A stretch of 64,000 nt of DNA from Eledone cirrhosa. Taxonomy: Eukaryota. The DNA is taken from contig OZ024745.1 of assembly GCA_964016885.1 (NCBI GenBank), positions 36,270,001 through 36,334,000 on the forward strand. Reading direction: 5' to 3'. Shown piece by piece: positions 1 through 64,000 of the stretch. A model generated the notes under the pieces. It ran no database searches and had not been told where the DNA came from. It saw nothing but the letters and a program-made list of their open reading frames with translations. The position numbers were made by a program, and so were the translations under genes. Numbering within the stretch: the first letter of the stretch is position 1; each line of letters starts with the position of its first letter.

Positions 1-203
1 CTTTATATTTAATAATCTCCCAATTGGTTGAGATTAAATTTGGCGATATATGGCTGCGCTTTCTAGCAGCAAGCCTACCCGCCATAAGCAACCAATCACA
101 CGCTTTCTCTCTGGCTGGTACACAGCTACATAGCGATCTTAGCCATTTTTGAATCTTAATTTGGCGCGGTCGGTTTGAGAAAATAAATGTCTGATTCTGA
201 GTT

Positions 204-283
204 TATCCACTGATGAAACCTAACTCAGGATATTTCCATATTATTTGGATGTCCTAAATAAGGAAGAAACCATGGTAGGGATA
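204..283 (+). ncRNA. Type I hammerhead ribozyme motif in a PLE pseudo-LTR-like element
   Basis: tatcca-CTGATGA (210-216), long stem II (aggatat...atgtcct), GAAAC-catg-GTA-gggata. Stem III is the palindrome ACCATGGT; there is one mismatch at the base of stem I. Confidence 0.65.
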
Positions 284-565
284 TAATTACGGTATGTGCG
301 CATTTCTTCTAGGTTTAATTTTACTACTAATTATATGCGGTTGACGGTATATTTGATCGGATTCTGCATGCTGCCGAAATGTTTGATAAATAGTGGAACG
401 GAGCTGCTGCGAAGAGGCTACGATCAATTGTTTGTCGGGGATTTCCCCGTAAGAAAATTTATTCTTAAAGCTTGCTAGATTTGATTTTGTATATGGTTAA
501 TTATGCTGATTAGAGGAAGAAATAGTATATATCTTAATATCTGATTGATTCTATAGACATGTTTT

Positions 566-1959: not shown

Positions 1960-2226
1960 GAAACAAATGAGGTCGTGTAGGTGTCACGACAAAAAAACAC
2001 ACAGTCCACGCTGTAATGTGGCTGTGTAGGTAATTCGGTAAATACCTCAAGTCCACACTGTAAACGTGGTTGATGTTAGGAAGGGCATCCAGTCGTAGAA
2101 AACCCGCCAGACAGTCATATGCGAGCGAGACAACCACTCTTGCCTCAAGTGGGAAAACTCCCGTCCAAACTCATGCAAGCGTGGAAGATGGACGTTAAAC
2201 GATGATGATGATGAAGATGATGATGA
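1960..2226 (+). mobile_element. SINE/LINE-derived 3' portion with (GAT)n tail
   Basis: ttaggaagggcatccagtcgtagaaaa and catgcaagcgtggaagatggacgttaaacgatgatgatg resemble a common cephalopod retroposon tail (recalled, not searched). Confidence 0.65.
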
Positions 2227-2749
2227 TATATATATATATTGCACTGCTTGTGCTTTGATGCATCTATGCTTTGATTTGTCTTATATTTTGTGGGGGTGTC
2301 CGGGTTTTTTGTTCCTTTATTGTTTTGTATTTTTACATTTATTTCTTTTCTTATCCTTGTATTTTTGTACTTTTTTATTAATTTCTTTATCATTTTCTTA
2401 TTGTTTCTGATCATGCTGAGTAATACCGTCACTCATATCTTGCTACCCTCTCCCAAACTCTTTATCATCTATTGCACCATTTAAGTGATACATTTTTGGT
2501 GTAATTTTTAATTTTTTAATTTTTAAGACATTTTATGACATCATGTATTCTGTCTTTTTCCAAATAGCGGTGGCCTCGGCACTCTCTTGCTGGACCTTTA
2601 ACCTTGTTCGGGTGACGAACCTCGATGGGGTCTGCAACTATTGATATACACATGTTTATAGGGTCTGATGATTCCTGCCATGTGTGTATGGATCAAACAC
2701 TGTTAACTAATAAAACAATGTATTTCTAAGAACTTTTTGGTTATTCCTA

Positions 2750-2829
<80 letters not shown>

Positions 2830-2984
2830 TTTCTTTATTTATTTATTTATTTATTAAAATATATATATATATATTAAAATATATATATATATTTATTAAA
2901 ATATCGAGCCCTCTTTGGATTTTAGTCTCCAAATTTATTATTATTAATATATATATATATATAATTATATAACGGCGATGAATT

Positions 2985-3480
2985 AGTTTTGCGAGGTTTT
3001 TTATATGAAATCGTGTGTCGAAACAAATATTGTTATACTTGGGGAGGGTCATATTTGTGTAATATTGCCAGAATTAATAACAGAACACACTCACTGTTTG
3101 GTTGGTTTTCGCTTTTCGCTTCTGTGTCTTTTATATCGGTAATCTAATTTAATCGGTCCTCAATGTTGCCATTGACTGATCGACGGTCAAAAATAATACA
3201 GATACAATATAGACACAAACACATATATATAGTTCATCAAAGTTCTTTCGTTGCACATCTGCAACATCGTCAGTGGTGCTATTGTTTCCTCCCGTTACAT
3301 TGTATGTCTACGCCATTTTTATTTAGTCTGTCTATATATTTATTTATTTATTTGTTTGTTTGTTTATTTTATTTTGTCTTCTTTGCTCATGCGTTTGCGT
3401 GTGTGTATAGTGTTTTGTTTGATGTGTGTTCGTGATTGGGTGACTAGTGTGTGTTTATATGTGTTTGTTGTTATTGTGCT
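2985..3480 (-). mobile_element. PLE pseudo-LTR family F copy with HHR at 3235-3278
   Basis: Inverted homolog at about 34770-35235. The minus strand reads cacca-CTGACGA-t-gttgca-gatg-tgcaac-GAAAG-aa-CTT-tgatg. Confidence 0.7.
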
Positions 3481-33364: not shown

Positions 33365-33642
33365 TATATGAAAAGAAATAGGATTTCGCTTCAAGCATAG
33401 CTTTATACAAATATGTATCGAAATTTCGTATTTTTAAAGAAAAAGGGTTTTAGGAAGCCGTAGCTATGCAAACACCGGCGCTAACGCCCTCTGGTGGTGT
33501 TGGTGTCCAGCAGATGCAAGGGGTCAAACGTCTATGCATTTTGGCTTGACTGGCCTTTGTCAGGACTGTCCCTCCCACCGCTTGCAACTGGTGGACTTGA
33601 AAACAGTCGAGAATATGTAGTTTTCTCGTCTGTGTATATGAG

Positions 33643-33647
<5 letters not shown>
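33365..33647 (-). mobile_element. Older family B copy with a decayed HHR
   Basis: Homologous to 52803-53570; the core reads CTGACAA...AAAATGCATA. Confidence 0.75.
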
Positions 33648-51211: not shown

Positions 51212-51664
51212 CATACAGGTACACATACATATATGCACGTATCAGTTTAGCGGACGCTTATTATAACGCCGCTTTGTTCGTTTGTAAACAAACTGAACAG
51301 CCTGAATTTTATGCCGTACGGTGTTAAGGCAACCACGTCACCTTTTTGTTAAACACTGACACCGACTTAACTCACTCGATATGCAAATTAGGCTGCTCAG
51401 CCGTTAATTTTCATAAGGAAAGTACATACTTTCGAACGTTCAACAATCTAGCAGAAGGGTATACGGTGCTGATGATAGCTAACAAGCTTGAAACTAGTAC
51501 ATCGTTCCTGTGTCAGTGTTGAACAAAAAGGTGACGTGGTTGCCTTAACACCGTACGGCATAAAATTCAGGCTGTTCAGTTTGTTTACAAACGAACAAAG
51601 CGGCGTTATAATAAGCGTCCGCTAAACTGATACGTGCATATATGTATGTGTACCTGTATATATT

Positions 51665-51697
<33 letters not shown>

Positions 51698-51752
51698 GCA
51701 TGCTACTGTACGTCTGTATACATATATGTATGTACGTATACACACATACTTA
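50571..51752. mobile_element. Family A: 470-bp tandem monomers plus an inverted arm, between (TA)n tracts
   Basis: ataagttgaa at 50571 and 51041; inversion junction at about 51360. Confidence 0.9.
51463..51505 (+). ncRNA. Minimal type I HHR, family A
   Basis: acggtg-CTGATGA-t.agc.taacaa.gct.t-GAAAC-ta-GTA-catcgt. The minus-strand copy at 50879-50921 has a C3-to-A change. Confidence 0.8.
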
Positions 51753-52807
<1,055 letters not shown>

Positions 52808-52911
52808 AAGTATTTCGTATCTCCAAGAAAATACGGTTTTAGGAAGCCGTAGCTATGCAAACACCGGGGGGCTAACGCCCTCTGGTGATGTCCAACAGAA
52901 GCAAGGGGGAC

Positions 52912-52957
52912 AACCGTCTATGCATTTCAGGCTTAACTGGCCTTCGTCAGGACGGTC
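52912..52957 (-). ncRNA. Minimal type I HHR, family B
   Basis: Exact reverse complement of 53370-53415. Confidence 0.85.
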
Positions 52958-53369
52958 CCTCCCATCGCTTGCGACTGCTGGACTAGAAGACAGCCGAGAA
53001 AATATACTTTTCTCGACTGTGTAAATGAGGTGATTAATCTCATTTGCATATGAAGCTGCATAAGTTGGCTCAACTTATAAGAAAAAAGAATGCATAGACG
53101 GTTGTCCCCCTTGCTTCTGTTGGACATCACCAGAGGGCGTTAGCCCCCGCCCCCCGTGTTCCTAAAACCGTATTTCCTTGGAGATACGAAATATTTATAC
53201 ATATTGTATAAAGCTATGCTTGAAACGAAATCCTATTTATTTTTTATTATAAGTTCAGCCAACTTATGCAGCTTCATATGAAAATGAGATTAATTACCTC
53301 ATTTACACAGTCGAGAAAAGTATATTTTCTCGGCTGTCTTCTAGTCCAGTAGTCGCAAGCGGTGCGAGG

Positions 53370-53415
53370 GACCGTCCTGACGAAGGCCAGTTAAGCCTGA
53401 AATGCATAGACGGTT
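53370..53415 (+). ncRNA. Minimal type I HHR, family B (fully canonical core)
   Basis: gaccgtc-CTGACGA-aggc.cagttaa.gcct-GAAAT-gc-ATA-gacggtt. Confidence 0.88.
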
Positions 53416-53584
53416 GTCCCTCTTGCTTCTGTTGGACATCACCAGAGGGCGTTAGCCCCCCCGGTGTTTGCATAGCTACGGCTTCCTAAAACCGTATTTC
53501 CTTGGAGATACAAAATATTTATACATATTGTATGAAGCTATGCTTGATGCGAAATCCTATTTCTTTTTTTATATATATATATAT

Positions 53585-53642
<58 letters not shown>

Positions 53643-54200
53643 CATATATACTTATGTTTATGTGTGTATGTATGCAACAGTTTATATATCCTTCTCACTT
53701 TGGTTTCAAACAGAAATCAATTGATTTTATAGTTAATGCTTAAATATATCTGCTAGATTGCTTTTAAAAACTGCGTCGGCATGTGTTGTGATATGTGAAG
53801 AGAACGTTTCCGGTAGTATTCCAGCAAATATTTACTCCAATATATTGGTTTTAAAATCATACTTAATAACAACATGTCTTATCGAAACTTTCGAAACAAA
53901 CAGAACATTCCTGGAACATTGAAGACGTGATGTTAATATTTCACGATTTTATTACGCTTGCATATGGTGACAGTGAATTATTATTCAATCAATTGAATTA
54001 CATGAGATCGGAAAGATAAATATATATTATTAAGAAGAAGCATGTCAAGAATTCGCAAGACATGGAGATAAAACATATTTCGGGTATTTATGGAAAATAA
54101 CAATAAGATTTTGTAATTAATTATTTGTACTGACGAGAATATATCATCCTAACATCAATTGATATCTCTGAAAATTCTGGAGGTTATCCATACATCAATG

Positions 54201-55727: not shown

Positions 55728-56189
55728 TTTAAGATGTTAGTATGGTCGAAACAAGAGAAGAAAAGAAATCCTTCATCAGCTGTAAAACCGAGATCAAGAT
55801 GTTTCGGCGCTTAATACAGGATATCTAAAAGCGATCAGCGGCGCGCCCAAGTCCTTTTCTCAATCAAAAGGCCAGGAGGGAAACAAAAGAAAAAAGAAGA
55901 AAAAAAGGGGAATGTAGTGAGGAGAGAGGAAGAAAGTGAAAAAAAACCAGGTAAACAGACCAGATAGTGAGTGTGGACACAGGTCAATGGAACATTCAAG
56001 GAGAAAAAAAATGTATATATATATTTAGCTAATCGGATGGTTGTTTCTATATTGTCAAAGTGTTTTCGTCATACATTCTGTGACCTCCTCAGTAAGTATG
56101 TTTTTATTTTGAGTCTCTTCTTTGTTTTGCTCCTACACCATTTTGTTTGCTCTTGTTGTTACAGCCGTTGTCTTGTCGTCGGTGTTTTC

Positions 56190-57995
56190 GTCGCTTGATG
56201 AACGATAGAAACCTGCCACCAATGCCAGAAACTACTGAGCTCCACAACACACCATCGAGGAGGTTTCTTCTCCCATGTTGCTTTGAGTATTGTGTTGACT
56301 GGCTGGCAATGCCTGTCTGACCATCAGCCGTTCCGATCATCAGACAAGCACATACACACATACATATATACACACTCACCATAGATGGACCAGACATACT
56401 ACACTTTTGCATGTCGCTTGAGCGCTCCTGCTGATTTACATTCTCTGCCACATGCTTGGCAAGCATGATGAGTAGCATCTCCACAGCAGCCTGGTAGTCA
56501 ACCACTGGTCTTACTTTATGACTGCGAAGATGACTTTTTAGTCCAGCTTTGCTTAGGCAGAGTCTCGCACAGACGCTGCATGTCAGCACCATAGGAGGAC
56601 CCTCGCCGTCTGGAAGTGCAACAGCAATTCCCTTCCTCACATCCCGCTTTACTTTCTCGTATGCGATTCGAGATGCCTCAAAGGCAACTTTTACCTCATA
56701 TACAGTCTTTCTCCATTTATTACGATCAGAGCAATATTTTCCCATGTATCAGCATAGATGTTAGCGTCTTTCAAAGAGGCTTTCAAGGAATCCTTATACC
56801 TCTTTTTTGGTTTATGTGGCGGTCGTTTTCCTTTAACCAACTCCCCATAAAAGAGTTGTTTTGGTATTCTAGAATCCTTCATCCTGGCAAGGTGACCACT
56901 CCAACGGAGTCGTTGCTTAAGCAAAGAGCTTCTATACTGTCACACATAGAGCTTTCCAAAATCTCGACATCACTGATGTGGTCCCTCCAGTGAACGCCAT
57001 GGATCCGTCTGAGACACATCTGATGGAAACGCTCCAATTGCTTAAGGTGGTGTCGATATGTGACTCAGGTCTCGCAGGCATAAAGAAGACAAGAGAGTAC
57101 ACATGCCTTGTACACCTTTACCTTTGTCCTCCTGCATATGTCTCGCCGACCCCAGAGTCGCCTTTCTAGCTTTTTCCGAAAGCATCACTTGCTTTCCTAA
57201 TCCTAAGCGAGATTTCACTGTCGAGGTTGCTGTATCGATTGACAGTGCTTCCCAGGTAGACAAACTGATCAACCACTCTAAGTCGTTTACCATACACATA
57301 GATATTTGGTTCAGTGTACTGCTTACCAGGGGCAGGTTGGTTCATGACGACGGTTTTTGTGTGACTGACAGTCAATCCTAGGGCAGTGCAAGCGTCAGAT
57401 AATGCATTGAAAATGTGCTGCATATCACTCTCTGTGTGCCCTACAAGATCGCAATCATCTGCATACAAGAGGTCTCTTATGATTGACGTAAATACTTTTG
57501 TCTTTGCAGCAAAGCGCCTTATGTTAAATGTGCTGCTTGAGGTTCGATATCGGATGTAAACTTAATGTTCGCAATTCCTGAATGCAATACAGAAAACATT
57601 GCAAAGTATATGGCAAACAGGGTCGGTGCTCGAATATCCCCCTGTTTCACTCCATTTTAGACACACATTGCAGATTGTGTTCTTCCTGAAAGTCAATCTG
57701 GTTTTCATGCTGGACGTGGCACTACTGATATGATCTTCTCAGCTAGACTGCTCTAGGAGAAGTGCATGGAACGAGTTTGGATCTGTATCAAGTTTTTGTC
57801 GATCTTACAAAAGCTTTCGATACTGTTAACAAAGATGCATTATAGAAGGGACTATAGAAACTTGGTTGCCCTGATAAGTTCCTTACTTTAGTTAGGTCTT
57901 TCCATGACGACATGAAGGCTTGGGTTAATGTCGGAGGTAAAATGTCGGGCCCTATCTCAGTAAAAAATGGAGTGAAACAGGGGGATATTCCAGCA
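56190..57995 (-). mobile_element. RTE-clade LINE, 5'-truncated with an inverted 5' segment
   Basis: Minus strand: GVKQGD, LLYADDCDL, FVYLGS, RLRWSGHLARM, RIPKQLFYGEL, C2H2 CSVCARLCLSKAGLKSHLRSH. Plus strand 57660-57995: QSGFHAGRGTTDMIF, FVDLTKAFDTVN, GVKQGD. Frameshifted; the 3' boundary is approximate. Confidence 0.9.
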
Positions 57996-58809: not shown

Positions 58810-59230
58810 TTATTTTAATCCGAAGTTTAGTCCATTAAGTAGAGGTTGGAATTTGTTAATGAAGTACGTTTCCTTATTGGTACGATGGATGAAAGAAGCG
58901 TTGTCTATGAAATTGTAAATGGGGTAAACTTTAAAGCTTGGTTGTTGGTTAGGTGCACAATTGGCGATATGTTCACTAAAAGCAATCTTTCTGTATTCCT
59001 GTATTTTGATTTGTGATCTATGGACGGTTATACGTTGTCGGAGGCTGTTTTTTATCTGTCCTATGAGGTGCTCTCGACAATCTGAGCACGTCAAAACATA
59101 GATTAGGTTTTCAGATGCACATTTAAAGTTGTGGTTAACTGTGAAATGTTGTCCTTGTTTAAAGTGTAATGTTGAACCTTCTATTAGATTTATGCATATA
59201 CCACAGTTGGGCCATCCGCAACTTTTACTG
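58810..59230 (-). pseudogene. PLE Cys-rich linker plus GIY-YIG endonuclease
   Basis: SKSCGWPNCGICINL...FKCASENLIYVLTCSDCREHLIGQIKNSLRQRITVHRSQI...EH...E.YFINKFQPLLN. Confidence 0.9.
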
Positions 59231-59532
59231 TAGGGTTTATTGTGAGGGTTGGTTGGATTTTGGATTGTGTGAGGATGTTTTTTTATGGATTTAGATTGCC
59301 TTTTGCTCTTTTTGATGTTTGTGTGCTTGGAGGATTTTGTTCATTCTTGGGTCTCTTTTTAGTAAAGGAATGTTCTGGGGGATGGTGTCGAATGCCTCAT
59401 TGTTGAGGAGGTTGTCTGTGGAGATGGATGGTAGAGTTTTCTGTTTCTGTTCATTCCTCGGTTTGGGGTGTCTGATTTCCTGGATGTTGAGTTTTAGGCA
59501 CCTTGGAATCCATTGTCGATTAGGGATGGTGG

Positions 59533-61065
59533 CTAGTTTCTGCTGATAAGTGTTATTTTTAATTCTTCTAGTCTTGTGTAGCATGTGTATATATCTGAAA
59601 CTATTGTGCAGATCCTTCTGGCTACGTTATAAGGAATTGCCATTTTGGTATGGCCAGGGTGAAACAAAAATGGAAGATATTGTTTGGAGTCTGTGGGTTT
59701 GTAGTATATGTCTGTTTCTATTTTGTTGTTTCTTTTCTTGATGAGGATGTCAAGGAAAGGGAGTTGTTCTTGGCTGTATTCCATTGTAAATTGTATATTT
59801 GTGTTGAGTCCATTTAGAATTGTTTTAAACTCAATCAGTGTTTCTATTCGTTCATGCCAGAGGATGAAGCAGTCGTCCAGATATCTCTTCCAGGTTTTTT
59901 CTATGTGTAGGTAGAAGTGGTTTCCGTATTTGTCTAGAGCTTTACGGTAGAGAGCAGTTTCGAAATATCCTAAGACATGGTTGGCGTATGAGGGGTTTAC
60001 TTTCGTGTCCATGGCAGTCCCAGATTTCTGTCTGTAGTATTTGGCATCGAATTTGAAGAAGTTATTTTCCAAGATGAATTTAAGGCCCTCCATCACAAAT
60101 TCTTCAGAGATGCGCTGTGGAAGTTCATTGGGGAAATTTTTAAGCCAGAATTGTATTGCCTCTATACCTAGGTTGTGTGGGATATTGGACAATAGATTGA
60201 TTACATCAAAGCTTACTAGTAGGGTATGTTTATTATTAAGTGTTGTTGGGAGGTGGTTGAGCATGTCAAGGTCGTCCCTTTTTATGTGTTTTAGGAAAGG
60301 TTTAAGCAGAATATCTAGGAAATTGCTTAGGCGGTGCGTTTCACATGTGGTACCTGCTATTATGGGTCTTAATTTGATGTCATCAGGAGGGGGATATTGA
60401 TGTAAATGTCTGTATCTTCCTTGCAGGCCCTGCCTATTAATTCGCTTTTGTGTGTCTTTGGGATACCGTAAAAAAGGCTGGTTCTGCTTTTGAAATTGGT
60501 GATGTAAGTTGTATTCCTTGTCGGTAAGGCCTTCTTTGCAAAGAGTTGTTAGGGATTTTAGGTTTCTCATTATTTTCTCTTGTGTGTAGTGTTGGGCCTT
60601 TTCGTAATATGTTTGGTTTTCAAGAGTTGAGAGTACTAGAGTCGTGTAGTAATTTGTCTTCATAAGGATTACTCCACTCCCTTTATCCGCCTCTTTCATT
60701 GTCAGGGTTTTGTCGTTCTTTAGACTGTTAAGACCATTCCATTCCTTTTTGCTTAGGTTTGGTTTTTGTTATGTCTGTGTAGGTGGTGGTATGGGTAATT
60801 AATAATGTGTTCGCATAATTGATCGAGGAATTTGTTCTTGCCTTTTGGTGGGGTGTAGTTGATTCTATTTCTGGCTATTGAGTCATCCTCATTGTATTTG
60901 TCGTGTAGTTGTTCGCTGAGTCTTAGTTTTCTACAGAATTCTGCAATGTCTTCCTTCATTTCGGGGTAGTTTGGACGTTGGGGAGTTAGTGTAAATGTCA
61001 GACCTTTGGAGAGTATGTTGATTTTGTCTGTTGTTAATTCTTTAGGCATTAAATTAACGGTTTTT
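59533..61065 (-). pseudogene. PLE reverse transcriptase (frameshifted)
   Basis: ORFs 59533-60699 and 60753-61049 carry the PLE RT motifs, including YLDD; out-of-frame stretch near 60400-60500. Confidence 0.93.
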
Positions 61066-62745
61066 ATTTCATTTGGTGTCTCCTGTGTGTTATGTGTTAT
61101 CTCGTTAACCTGTGTCTGTGTGCTGTTTCTAAAAAATTATTACGGAAGTTATGGTGGTTGTTGAAGTTTGGATGTCCCTTGTGGTTCTATTGGCCCCTGC
61201 TGTTGTTGTTAGAGGGTGTGTAGTTGTGGTGGTTGTTGAATATAGGTTGTATAGTAGGGTTGTATTGAGCCCTACTGTTGTTGTAGCGTGTGTAGATTTT
61301 ATGGACGTTGTTATAGGGTGTGTAGTTGTGGTGGTTGTTGAAGTTAGGTTCTATCGTATGGTTATATTGAGCCCTGCTTTTGTTGTTGTAGGGTGTGTAG
61401 ACTTGGTGGTAGCTGTAGTAGGGTTGCATTGTGTGGTTATATTGAGTCCTGCTGTTGTTGTTGTATGGTGTGTAGTTATGGTGGTTGTAGTGGTTAGGGT
61501 GTCTCGTGGGGTTGTATTGTCCCCTGCTGGTGTTATTGTGGGATGTGGTTAGTGGAGGGGGGTAGATTAGGGTTTCCTTATAGTTGGTGTGTAGTTGTGA
61601 CCCTATGTGGCATGTGTGGTAGTTGTGTATTTTGGGTTCTATGTTGAAAGTAATGATGGTTGTGGGTTTGTTGTGTGGGGATGTTAGGGGGGTTGTAAAG
61701 GTTGGCGTTTCTATGGTTTCTGCTGGTGGGAGAGAAGTTGTAGTGTCTATCTTGTAGCTGATGTTTCTCTATTACTATATTTGTTGCAGCGGAATCCGTG
61801 TGGTAGCTATGTGGTGGGTGTAGGAGGTAGGGGTGAGGTGAAGCCTTCTTTTTTTTTTGCTATGTGGGGAGGTATTTTTTTGTTGTTGTTGTTGGTTGTT
61901 GTGTGGTGTTTGGGTGGTGATTAGGTTTTCTTACTATTGTGGTTTTAATGAAGGGGTTCTTGGATGTGTGTTCTTTTTGGAAAAGTGTTTCATAGTTAGA
62001 AAACGTTTATTTCCTAACGCTGAAGGGATTTTAATTCTTCCTTATTACAGTCCTCTAGCCATAGTTTTGAAATATTTTGTAGGGTGGTGTCTTTGGTTTT
62101 ATTAATAATTGCTTGATTAATTTCATCGTCGATTGATTTGATCCTATCTTCATTTGCTTGGGCTCTCAATTTTCGGTTTTCATGTTATCAAGTGCCATTC
62201 TTTCTCTGAGGCGTCTTTGTGTCTGGGGTTCGTTTGAGATGGATTTAATTTGTAGTTTGCGGGGAAGGATTAATGGGGATAAGTTAATCAATTTTTCATA
62301 GATCTCTGCTTTGTTATTATTTTGTATCATCTCCCAAAAGGAGAATTTCTTGTTTTTAAGAGATGTGTACGATTGTCGTATTAATTTGTTTTTTATTTCG
62401 TAAGTTGTGACTGTATTAGTGTCATGTGTTTTCTCGTTTGCTTAAATAGGATTTGTGTTGTTATTCAGGTGTGTTTTTATTGTCTCACATAAGTTGTTGA
62501 TATTGTCGTTGGTTTCAGTGGATGTGTATTTTGGGATTGTTTCTTCACTTGTAGAATTAAATTTGTTGGTGAGTATTGACAAATTAGAGTTTATTTTTTG
62601 TAGTTATTGGAGTATCTCTTGATTGATGTTAATGAAAGTGGAGTCTGTTTTGGTTTTAGTTGGCATTTTCTGTATCTCGTGTGGGAGTAAATAATAATTA
62701 TAAAATGTGGAGAAGGCGCACACGAGTTGGAATATATATATATGT

Positions 62746-62935
62746 AAATAGGAAAAGGTATGACCCCGACGGCAGAGCTCAAGCCGTTTCGACGGCTATT
62801 TCTGGACTCGAAACGGCTTGAGCTCTGCCGTCAGGGTCATACTTTTTTCCTATTTCGCACTCTACTGCCCTAAGTATTGAGTACTTTGTTGCGTTATGGT
62901 CCATCTGGATCCTTACCACAATTCCTTCGTTATAT
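62746..62935. mobile_element. Family E fold-back element between two PLE copies
   Basis: Arms 62746-62792/62808-62855, continuing to ccttcgtta(ta). Confidence 0.8.
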
Positions 62936-62959
62936 ATGTAATAATGGAGAAAAAAACGA

Positions 62960-64000
62960 TTATATCCCACACAACCTACGTATATATGCAATACAATTGT
63001 GGCTAAAAAATTCCCCAATGAACTTCCACAGCGCATCCCTAAAGAATTTGTGATGGACGGCCTAAAATTCATCTTGGAAAATAACTTCTTTGAATTCGAT
63101 GCGCCAACCTTATCATAGGATATTTGAAAACTACTCTCTACCGTAAAGTTCTAGACAAATACGGAAACCACTTCTACCTACACATTGAAAAACACTGGAA
63201 GAGATATCTGGACGATAACTTCATCCTCTGGCATGAAAGTATAGAAAGACTGATGAGTTTAAAACAATTCTAAATGGACTCAACACAAACATACAATTTA
63301 CAATGGAATACAGCCAAGATCAACACCCTTTCCTTGATATCGACACCAAGAAAACAAACGAACAAAATAGAAACAGACATATACTACAAACCCACAGACT
63401 CCAAACAATATCTTCCAATTATCACGTGCCACCCTGGCCATACCAAAATGGAATTTCATTATAACGTAGCCAGAATAATCTGCACAATAGCTTCAGATAA
63501 ATACACATGCTACACACGACGAGATCAAGTAAAGAAAACACTTATCAGCAGAAACTACCCACCATCCCTAATCAACAATGTATTCCAACTTAACGTAAAA
63601 CTCAACATCCAGGAACTCAGACACCCCAGACCCAGGAATGAACAGAAACAGAAAACTCGACCATACTTCTTCACAGACAACCTCCTCAACAATGAGGAAT
63701 TGGACACCATCCTCCAGAACATTACTTTACTAAAAAGAGACTCAAGAATGAACAAAATCCTCCAAACACACAAACATCAAAAAGAGCAAAAGACAACCTA
63801 AATCCATAAAAAACATCCTCACACAATCCAAAATCCAACCAAACCTCATAATGAAGCCTACAGTAAATATTGCGGAAGGCCCAACTGTGGTATATGCATA
63901 AATCTAATAGAAGGTTCAACATTCCACTTTAAACAAGGACAATATTTCACAGTTAAATACAACTTTACATGTGCATCTGAAAACCTAATCTATGTTTTGA
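62960..64000 (+). pseudogene. Second, 5'-truncated Neptune PLE copy (RT 3' half to the start of GIY-YIG; runs off the window)
   Basis: Diverged reverse complement of about 60185-59092; RYLDD, YYKPTDSKQYL, CGRPNCGIC, CASENLIYVL; internal deletion near 63100. Confidence 0.92.

What the first reader, a model, noticed from the sequence alone, without database searches (positions are those of the whole stretch)
52803..53570. Best-preserved candidate: monomer of about 320 nt with a canonical HHR, tandem starting at stem III
Two identical intact HHRs lie in opposite orientation. The plus-strand tandem begins at aatgcata|gacgg (53089), essentially at the cleavage site, and wraps round through the HHR again. 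Its size and one-HHR-per-unit layout match metazoan non-LTR retrozymes that give circular RNAs. An older copy at 33365 shows repeated activity.
Basis: partly seen in the sequence, partly recalled or inferred. Interest (0 to 1): 0.75.

Follow-up and report, generated by a model that had tools for sequence, protein, structure and literature searches.

The report
Hammerhead retrozyme with Penelope insertion footprint
This is one of many scattered copies of a roughly 325-base, protein-free jumping repeat carrying a hammerhead motif predicted to cut its own RNA; its back-to-back layout and two fixed end points indicate it was likely pasted in by a Penelope-type enzyme, possibly from a small RNA circle, as already proposed for animal 'retrozymes'.

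Summary
The two hammerheads are real and identical (plus 53370-53415, minus 52912-52957), with helices supported by covariation across older subfamilies. But the locus is not a two-ribozyme tandem. It is one insertion in (TA)n: a 0.9-unit minus arm and a 1.5-unit plus arm, joined head to head, each with one complete ribozyme. The family unit is 323-332 nt (312 here). The genome holds 890 exact core 16-mers, dispersed; no array beyond two cores was found. Arms end at two fixed points, about +119 and +160 after the cut site, and paired arms take one each (32 of 34). This matches the Penelope 'tail' and inverted-copy signature. Reverse transcription runs through the cut site without extra stops (89 of 94 arms), and the repeats of one insertion mostly share alleles. 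That favours a circular or re-used monomer template but does not prove it. The start at stem III is an ordinary truncation point, though folding predicts it allows a 6-bp helix III that would cut after 53096. No RNA data were listed and no autonomous partner was found. Verdict: a new family of a known kind (non-LTR retrozyme, non-autonomous Penelope-like element).

The parts
51657..52803 (.). (TA)n tract, left flank and likely target
   Evidence: 76 of 105 family arm ends in the two end classes have (TA)4 within 30 nt
52803..53090 (-). Inverted arm: unit positions about +155..323, then +1..+119; ends at the short 3' end, without tail
   Evidence: L001
52912..52957 (-). Type I hammerhead, complete; predicted cut after 52919 (AUA)
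53089..53090 (.). Head-to-head junction of the two 5'-truncated arms, 2-nt overlap (AA)
   Evidence: sequence
53089..53096 (+). Orphan helix III half and cut triplet (AATGCATA) without its own core; predicted to pair with 53402-53407 into a 6-bp helix III
   Evidence: free MFE from 53089 equals this fold
53097..53408 (+). One cut-to-cut unit, 312 nt (12-nt deletion near 53149-53160); its two ends pair into a long interrupted stem that closes a multibranch of hairpins
   Evidence: circular MFE -87.0, z -4.9
53370..53415 (+). Type I hammerhead, complete: stem I GACCGUC/GACGGUU, core CUGACGA, stem II AGGC/GCCU with loop CAGUUAA, GAAA, 1-bp helix III with UGCA loop; predicted cut after 53408
53409..53528 (+). 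Second, partial unit up to the short end point (+119, apex of a TTTATAC/GTATAAA hairpin in intact copies)
53529..53570 (+). About 40-nt 'tail' (+120 to about +160), present on this arm's end only
53570..53650 (.). (TA)n tract, right flank
33365..33647 (-). Older single-arm copy of the same family, 83% identical, ribozyme core broken

Best explanation
The locus is one insertion of a dispersed, non-coding, roughly 325-nt repeat with a type I hammerhead motif in each unit, likely a non-autonomous Penelope-like element (non-LTR retrozyme) that was likely written into a (TA)n tract by a borrowed Penelope reverse transcriptase-endonuclease. Shown from the genome: the copy number, two fixed 3' ends (+119, +160), one end type per arm in paired insertions, random 5' truncation, no excess stop at the cut site, and mostly one haplotype per insertion. 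Inferred steps: (1) copies holding two cut sites are transcribed and cut through a 6-bp palindromic helix III formed between successive units; (2) the monomer, whose ends are held together by a long stem, is ligated to a circle, where helix III shrinks to 1 bp and re-cutting would be slow; (3) a Penelope enzyme nicks both strands of AT-rich DNA and primes each nick at one of two internal sites of the RNA, helped by ATACATAT or TTATA pairing with the microsatellite; (4) both cDNAs run round through the ribozyme, stop at random, and are joined head to head by short microhomology. Odds: non-autonomous Penelope-type element about 0.9; given that, circular template about 0.55, uncut multimer about 0.3, template jumping on a linear monomer about 0.15. 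This copy is probably an ageing daughter, but it may still cut out a 312-nt unit.
For: Copies: 249 exact 44-mers, 890 core 16-mers, 1030 tail 21-mers; extrapolated 2,000-3,000 ribozyme copies (about a third carry U at 10.1). Ends: of 120 arms in 73 loci, 62 end at +143-171, 43 at +110-126, 15 elsewhere. Of 46 head-to-head pairs, 32 are long/short, 2 long/long, 0 short/short, and 12 have an unclassed end (P about 3e-8). In a tail-selected sample of 82 loci (13 shared), 42 of 44 classed pairs are long/short, out of 58 pairs. PMC8557442 (passages) describes partial tandems, an inverted 5'-truncated copy, a 30-40 bp tail often at one end only, and microsatellite targets as Penelope-like features. 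PMC11167929 (parts 1-2 of 4) shows two internal start sites bounding the tail and extension of both DNA strands in vitro. Read-through: 45 of 48 and 44 of 46 arms pass the cut site, and 7 pass a second; the longest arm is 765 nt. The 25 two-core hits show no third same-strand core within 1.5 kb. Haplotypes: successive units of one arm share 76 of 89 common minor alleles (20% expected) and 54 of 539 rare ones (2.5% expected). Here C24T and T92C are in all three copies of those sites. Structure: circular MFE z -4.9 to -6.4 in 5 natural units, and 0 of 60 shuffles as low in the 4 for which this was counted. Across 22 copies, 85.8% of cells pair and 34 cells change on both sides, 0 of 500 shuffles; slid controls pair 29-47%. 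Penelope-type RT and endonuclease ORFs are abundant (150 of 14,666 candidates scored; RVT_1).
Against: No expression, cleavage or circle is shown. No autonomous element sharing this ribozyme or tail was found in 38 Penelope loci (two hits, both family insertions nearby) or in about 170 family and related loci, so the driver is unidentified. Allele sharing is incomplete. Of alleles shared by both arms at the same unit, 36 rows also occur in the other unit and 13 do not (rows not independent); for rare alleles it is 9 allele-locus cases yes and 10 no. Rare sharing is also higher between arms at the same unit (104 of 646) than between successive units (54 of 539). This is what an uncut multimer, arm-to-arm conversion or recurrent CpG change would give. 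PMC11167929 found unprocessed RNA to be the dominant substrate of an autonomous Poseidon in vitro, and no strand difference in start site. In the preprint 10.64898/2026.07.22.740005 only 1 of 9 frog dimers cleaved. Covariation counts include relatedness, and core letters were fixed by the search pattern in most rows. Long arrays could be collapsed in the assembly or missed by exact patterns.
Confidence: 0.85

Rival explanations
1. Same element and enzyme, but the template is an uncut, read-through multimeric RNA from a few long source copies. The hammerhead is incidental to insertion and no circle is needed.
For: PMC11167929 (parts 1-2): ribozyme mutants insert equally well in vitro and unprocessed RNA dominates. 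Helix III is weak. Rare alleles shared by both arms are missing from the other unit in 10 of 19 allele-locus cases. No stop at the cut site is predicted by this model too.
Against: No source with more than two cores was found, though arms reach 2.4 units. At least five marker haplotypes occur 6 or more times, and each is mostly uniform across its units, which needs repeated re-duplication of a single unit. The unit's ends pair into a closed fold kept across 70-95% identical subfamilies.
Confidence: 0.27
2. The template is a cut linear monomer, and the reverse transcriptase jumps from its 5' end to its 3' end, which the terminal stem holds close.
For: It explains haplotype uniformity without ligation. 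One locus (L166) joins +186 to +1, as a misplaced jump would.
Against: Jumping would have to be about 95% efficient and exact: 89 of 94 arms pass the site with no excess stops.
Confidence: 0.13
3. These are only the pseudo-LTR ends of 5'-truncated, full-length Penelope elements; no independent small element exists.
For: Penelope elements are very common here and most insertions are 5'-truncated.
Against: Going upstream from the ribozyme, copies run back into the tail of the same unit, not into an ORF. Only 2 of 137 family loci have a Penelope protein hit within 1.5 kb, neither continuous with the unit. Older subfamilies keep the same 325-340 nt loop.
Confidence: 0.04
4. The 768-nt insert is a fold-back or MITE-type DNA transposon with long inverted termini, inserted at TA.
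For: Inverted ends 95% alike and TA flanks.
Against: The two termini differ by the 40-nt tail. The central junction falls at a different place in nearly every locus, many loci have one arm only, and the fold covaries as RNA.
Confidence: 0.02

Closest known systems
Metazoan non-LTR retrozymes (Cervera and de la Pena 2020, PMC7229834; passages and sections 15, 17 read)
   Same: Non-coding 150-450 bp unit, GC below 50%, one type I hammerhead per unit, self-paired fold with the ribozyme free to form. The 1-bp helix III with palindromic tetraloop is as in axolotl HHR_Amex1 (331-nt unit, works as a dimer). A U-U mismatch at the base of stem II, as in HHR_Amex2, marks about a third of copies here.
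   Different: Here copies are dispersed, at most two cores per arm, with no long arrays found. Inverted partner arms and two fixed 3' ends are the rule. That paper says invertebrate ribozymes typically have a longer helix III. Expression and circles are shown there, not here.
Retrozymes as non-autonomous Penelope-like elements (Li, Clavereau and Pollet, bioRxiv 10.64898/2026.07.22.740005; parts 1-3 of 5 read, supplements closed)
   Same: Same conclusion about origin and mobilisation; monomers and dimers dispersed.
   Different: Their evidence is co-occurrence and pLTR homology, mainly in vertebrates. Here it is the insertion footprint, and no pLTR homologue was found. By their rule (two consecutive complete ribozymes) this locus is not an 'active' retrozyme.
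EN+ Penelope-like elements (Craig et al. 2021, PMC8557442, passages; Frangieh et al. 2024, PMC11167929, parts 1-2 of 4)
   Same: Partial tandem, inverted 5'-truncated copy, 30-40 bp tail at one end, microsatellite targets, two internal start sites downstream of the ribozyme, one of them in a hairpin loop.
   Different: No ORF. In Poseidon in vitro the two DNA strands showed no difference in start site; here paired arms use one site each in 32 of 34 cases. PMC8557442 also mentions non-autonomous Chlamys elements with pLTRs, in algae.

Membership tests
Type I hammerhead ribozyme | CUGANGA, GAAA and NUH with helices I, II, III | tested here: met
   AUA triplet; helix III 1 bp alone, 6 bp between two sites
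Type I hammerhead ribozyme | Helices supported by covariation | tested here: met
   3 of 4 stem II pairs and 4 of 11 pairs of stem I and its extension change on both sides; relatedness not removed
Type I hammerhead ribozyme | Loop 1-loop 2 tertiary contact (U1.7 with last A of loop 2) | tested here: inconclusive
   U1.7 is invariant in 22 of 22 rows while its partner pairs in 11 of 21; loop 2 ends in A here. Contact described in PMC11875169 (passages); not shown here
Type I hammerhead ribozyme | Match to an Rfam hammerhead model | tested here: not met
   a database match is not itself definitional
Type I hammerhead ribozyme | Self-cleavage | not testable with these tools
   needs in vitro assay
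Non-LTR retrozyme | Non-coding 150-450 nt unit, low GC, one type I ribozyme per unit | tested here: met
   323-332 nt, GC 0.44; no unit-spanning ORF of 120 aa
Non-LTR retrozyme | Tandem copies with two or more complete ribozymes | tested here: inconclusive
   Met by the family (20 + 5 hits), not by this locus; no multimer beyond two found
Non-LTR retrozyme | Expressed as linear and circular monomer RNA | not testable with these tools
   no RNA holder listed
Penelope-like insertion | Partial tandem plus inverted 5'-truncated copy | tested here: met
   46 head-to-head pairs in 73 loci; 58 in 82
Penelope-like insertion | 30-40 bp tail on one end | tested here: met
   ends at about +119 and +155-160; 32 of 34 classed pairs take one each
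Penelope-like insertion | Microsatellite target, no clear target duplication | tested here: met
   76 of 105 ends next to (TA)n, several next to (CA)n
Autonomous Penelope-like element | ORF with RT and GIY-YIG endonuclease | tested here: not met
   none within the unit or continuous with it
Non-autonomous Penelope-like element | Homology to the pLTR of an autonomous partner | tested here: inconclusive
   none in 38 loci found with one endonuclease query; other Penelope families not surveyed
tRNA-derived SINE | tRNA head | tested here: not met
   no tRNA in the window; no Rfam hit

The most novel reading that the evidence does not exclude
The family is a genomic record of rolling-circle reverse transcription. 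A Penelope enzyme, probably a dimer, primes the two strands of one DNA break at two different fixed sites of a single ribozyme-made RNA circle and copies round it from both. The palindromic helix III acts as a switch, on in the multimer and off in the circle. At this locus the 8 nt kept before the first cut site would be enough to rebuild an active ribozyme from the two ends of the unit.
Probability: 0.45. Interest if true: 0.65.

Novelty: new member of a known kind. Interest (0 to 1): 0.4.

Why it matters
That animal retrozymes are copied from circles by Penelope enzymes is proposed (PMC7229834 Discussion; 2026 preprint) but, in what I read, not shown. This family gives a countable footprint: two start sites used one per arm, no stop at the cut site, and one haplotype per insertion. 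It names exact constructs and predictions for testing the route. As a class it is known, and earlier notes of this scan describe the same footprint in this genome, so this locus adds numbers and one structural prediction rather than a new system.

Tried and rejected
Rfam: nothing at gathering score in the window; four chance hits at E 1-5, no hammerhead. Expression: no RNA holder listed, which is no evidence either way. Three runs of unknown kind, one sample, were laid as contigs: about 4,100 contigs each, as many genomic copies would give, and silent on circles. Metagenome scan for the core: 0. Autonomous partner: endonuclease query from the window, 30 loci plus 8 longer stretches compared with the unit, and 28 loci of diverged ribozymes with the same helix III, 20 of them at 7 kb: none found. 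Pfam on the window's own decayed Penelope ORFs: 0 families; better copies gave RVT_1 and a weak GIY-YIG. Long arrays: two gapped patterns gave 20 and 5 hits, none adjacent; mixed or diverged arrays would be missed. The idea that arms start at the cut site looked plausible in the first 30 loci, but those were ranked by a query that begins there; the tail-selected sample showed no excess. Folding from 53085 instead of 53089 gave the local stem at the second site as MFE, so the end-to-end fold is favoured only among constrained active folds (-108.0 against -101.5 kcal/mol ensemble) and for the start at 53089. (unit interior) added nothing. Rows dropped: 7 duplicate loci; 18 duplicates and the 30 Penelope loci; 6 duplicates; L067 and L076 (second motif not exact); homopolymer and TA-rich columns in the allele counts. 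The organism was not identified; 'octopus' and 'cephalopod' were a guess from the look of the DNA. Five paper searches listed no paper on this family or on one-site-per-arm usage in retrozymes; most hits were seen only as listings, and the preprint's supplements could not be seen.

Full report
Observation. The stretch 52803-53570 sits between two (TA)n tracts. Self-comparison resolves it into a minus arm (52803-53090) and a plus arm (53089-53570), joined head to head over a 2-nt overlap. Each arm holds one complete type I hammerhead with identical cores: stem I GACCGUC/GACGGUU, CUGACGA, stem II AGGC/GCCU, GAAA, a single A-U pair for helix III capped by UGCA, and an AUA triplet ending at 53408 (plus) or 52919 (minus). 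The plus arm begins 8 nt before a cut site, but that first site has no core of its own. The cut-to-cut distance is 312 nt; six natural two-core copies give 323-332 nt. The copy at 33371-33647 is 83% identical and has lost G8 and G12. Rfam does not report the motif.

Family size and spread. The genome (3.0 Gb, animal by its look, not identified) has 249 exact 44-mers, 890 exact core 16-mers and 1030 exact tail 21-mers, with 0 for reversed controls. The ratio of the first two gives about 4.5% divergence and about 1,800 copies with A at position 10.1; 25 of 76 tail-selected segments carry U there instead. So 2,000-3,000 ribozyme copies is a fair extrapolation. A looser pattern found 462 further motifs with the same helix III, among them older subfamilies 70-90% identical with the same loop of parts. 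Two same-strand cores one unit apart occur 20 times with A and 5 times with U; none has a third within 1.5 kb.

Structure. Five natural units folded as circles give z -4.9 to -6.4 against 60 shuffles each. The two ends of the unit pair into a long interrupted stem that continues stem I and closes several hairpins. The same stem also forms locally round a single ribozyme, so it does not by itself imply a circle. On 22 aligned copies from young and old subfamilies, 85.8% of 621 cells pair, 34 change on both sides, and 0 of 500 shuffles reach this; slid controls pair 29-47%. Relatedness is not removed, and the core letters were fixed by the search pattern. U1.7 is invariant although its partner varies, in line with the loop-loop contact described in PMC11875169 (passages). 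The 1-bp palindromic helix III is the amphibian type, which PMC7229834 (section 15) reports to cut poorly alone and well as a dimer. For RNA starting at 53089 the free minimum-energy fold pairs the orphan AUGCAU (53090-53095) with 53402-53407 into a 6-bp helix III, placing the one core on the first site (-103.0 kcal/mol, against -95.8 for the fold at the second site). Starting at 53085 the local stem wins. This is a prediction only.

Insertion footprint. In 73 distinct loci, 105 of 120 arms end at one of two points, about +119 or +155-160 after the cut site; alignments run a few bases into the TA flank. Of 46 head-to-head pairs, 32 are long/short, 2 long/long, 0 short/short, and 12 have an unclassed end. 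In 82 loci chosen by the tail motif (13 loci shared with the first set), 42 of 58 pairs are long/short, 1 long/long, 1 short/short, and 14 unclassed; that selection favours long ends. This locus is short on the left and long on the right. 76 of 105 classed ends have (TA)4 within 30 nt; several others abut (CA)n and end at TATACA, which suggests priming by microhomology (inference). PMC8557442 (passages) lists partial tandems, an inverted 5'-truncated copy, a 30-40 bp tail often at one end only, and microsatellite targets as Penelope-like features. PMC11167929 (parts 1-2 of 4) shows two internal start sites bounding the tail and extension of both strands. Penelope-type ORFs are plentiful (14,666 candidates, 150 scored; RVT_1), and one lies at 58810-61136 in the window. 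None examined shares the unit's ribozyme or tail as part of its own ends.

What was the template? The start sites lie downstream of the cut site, so cDNA longer than 160 nt must cross it. 45 of 48 long-ended and 44 of 46 short-ended arms that reach +12 do cross, a loss no higher than in neighbouring 23-nt windows, and 7 cross a second site. So the template is continuous there: a circle, an uncut multimer, or a very efficient jump. In 137 loci (462 segments), successive units of an arm share 76 of 89 common minor alleles (20% expected) and 54 of 539 rare ones (2.5% expected); opposite arms at the same unit share 122 of 137 and 104 of 646. At least five marker haplotypes are common. At this locus two minor alleles are in all three copies of their sites and three are in both copies of theirs. 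Uniform units within many haplotypes, with no long source array found, need repeated re-use of one unit, which a circle supplies. Against this, rare alleles shared by both arms are absent from the other unit in 10 of 19 allele-locus cases. Several are CpG sites or near the junction, but I did not test that explanation. PMC11167929 found uncut RNA to be the main substrate for an autonomous element. I put the circle at about 0.55 within the Penelope-type reading.

Expression. No RNA run was listed. Three runs of unknown kind gave only contigs. Nothing follows about expression.

Comparison and novelty. It works like, and on sequence features belongs with, animal non-LTR retrozymes (PMC7229834: passages, sections 15 and 17), which a 2026 preprint (parts 1-3 of 5; supplements closed) already calls non-autonomous Penelope derivatives. 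Circle formation and cleavage, which define the class experimentally, are untested here, and this locus fails the preprint's two-ribozyme rule although its family meets it. Five searches listed no paper on this family. Earlier notes of this scan (e1-9869133, e1-8673873, same genome) reach the same reading; mine was stated before I saw them, and they are not independent support. Verdict: a new family of a known kind, useful as a test case; interest 0.4.

Noticed in passing
window +24001, +25309, +39566, +44381, -45241: A second hammerhead-like family, TATTTTAT-CTGATGA...GAAA-TATATATAAT, also beside Penelope ORFs in L135, L136, L244.
   Followed up: no
window -25612, -56092, -3273: A third and fourth motif type (CTGARGAGGTCACA...GACGAAA; CTGACGATGTTGCAGATGTGCAACGAAA) followed by GAACTTTGA or ACACTTTGA; wiring not worked out. 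Earlier notes describe re-ordered hammerheads in this genome.
   Followed up: no
window 58810-61136 (-) and 62779-64000 (+): Decayed Penelope-like element with RT, a CxxC linker and an endonuclease (Neptune type by recalled motifs), with an inverted partial copy next to it; a 664-aa open frame of the same family is in L241:2669-4660.
   Followed up: partly
window 56104-57900 (-): Fragment of a LINE-type reverse transcriptase gene (RTE-like by recalled motifs) downstream of the Penelope element.
   Followed up: no
L204, L211, L232-L237: A family with no BLAST match to this unit uses the same GAAATGCATA helix III, with different stems I and II.
   Followed up: partly
tail-selected loci, unit positions 277-302: 10 of 45 long-ended arms that pass the cut site stop 21-46 nt upstream of it, in or just 5' of the ribozyme stems; possible pausing at structure.
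   Followed up: no
L116:2914-2949: A tail-only 36-nt piece (+119..+154, 100% identical) between another repeat and (TA)n.
   Followed up: no
L166:1202-1435 and L203 upstream of 1501 (-): L166 joins unit position 186 directly to +1; L203 has an extra helix III/cut-site piece inside the unit. Both look like template switches at the cut site.
   Followed up: no
G000:C1:143348606-143796103: Seven same-strand core matches, mostly about 58-60 kb apart, suggesting a large segmental tandem duplication.
   Followed up: no
L245:1-1455 (-): 485-aa open frame of a different Penelope-like family with RVT_1 and a weak GIY-YIG match; not checked as a driver beyond BLAST against the unit.
   Followed up: partly
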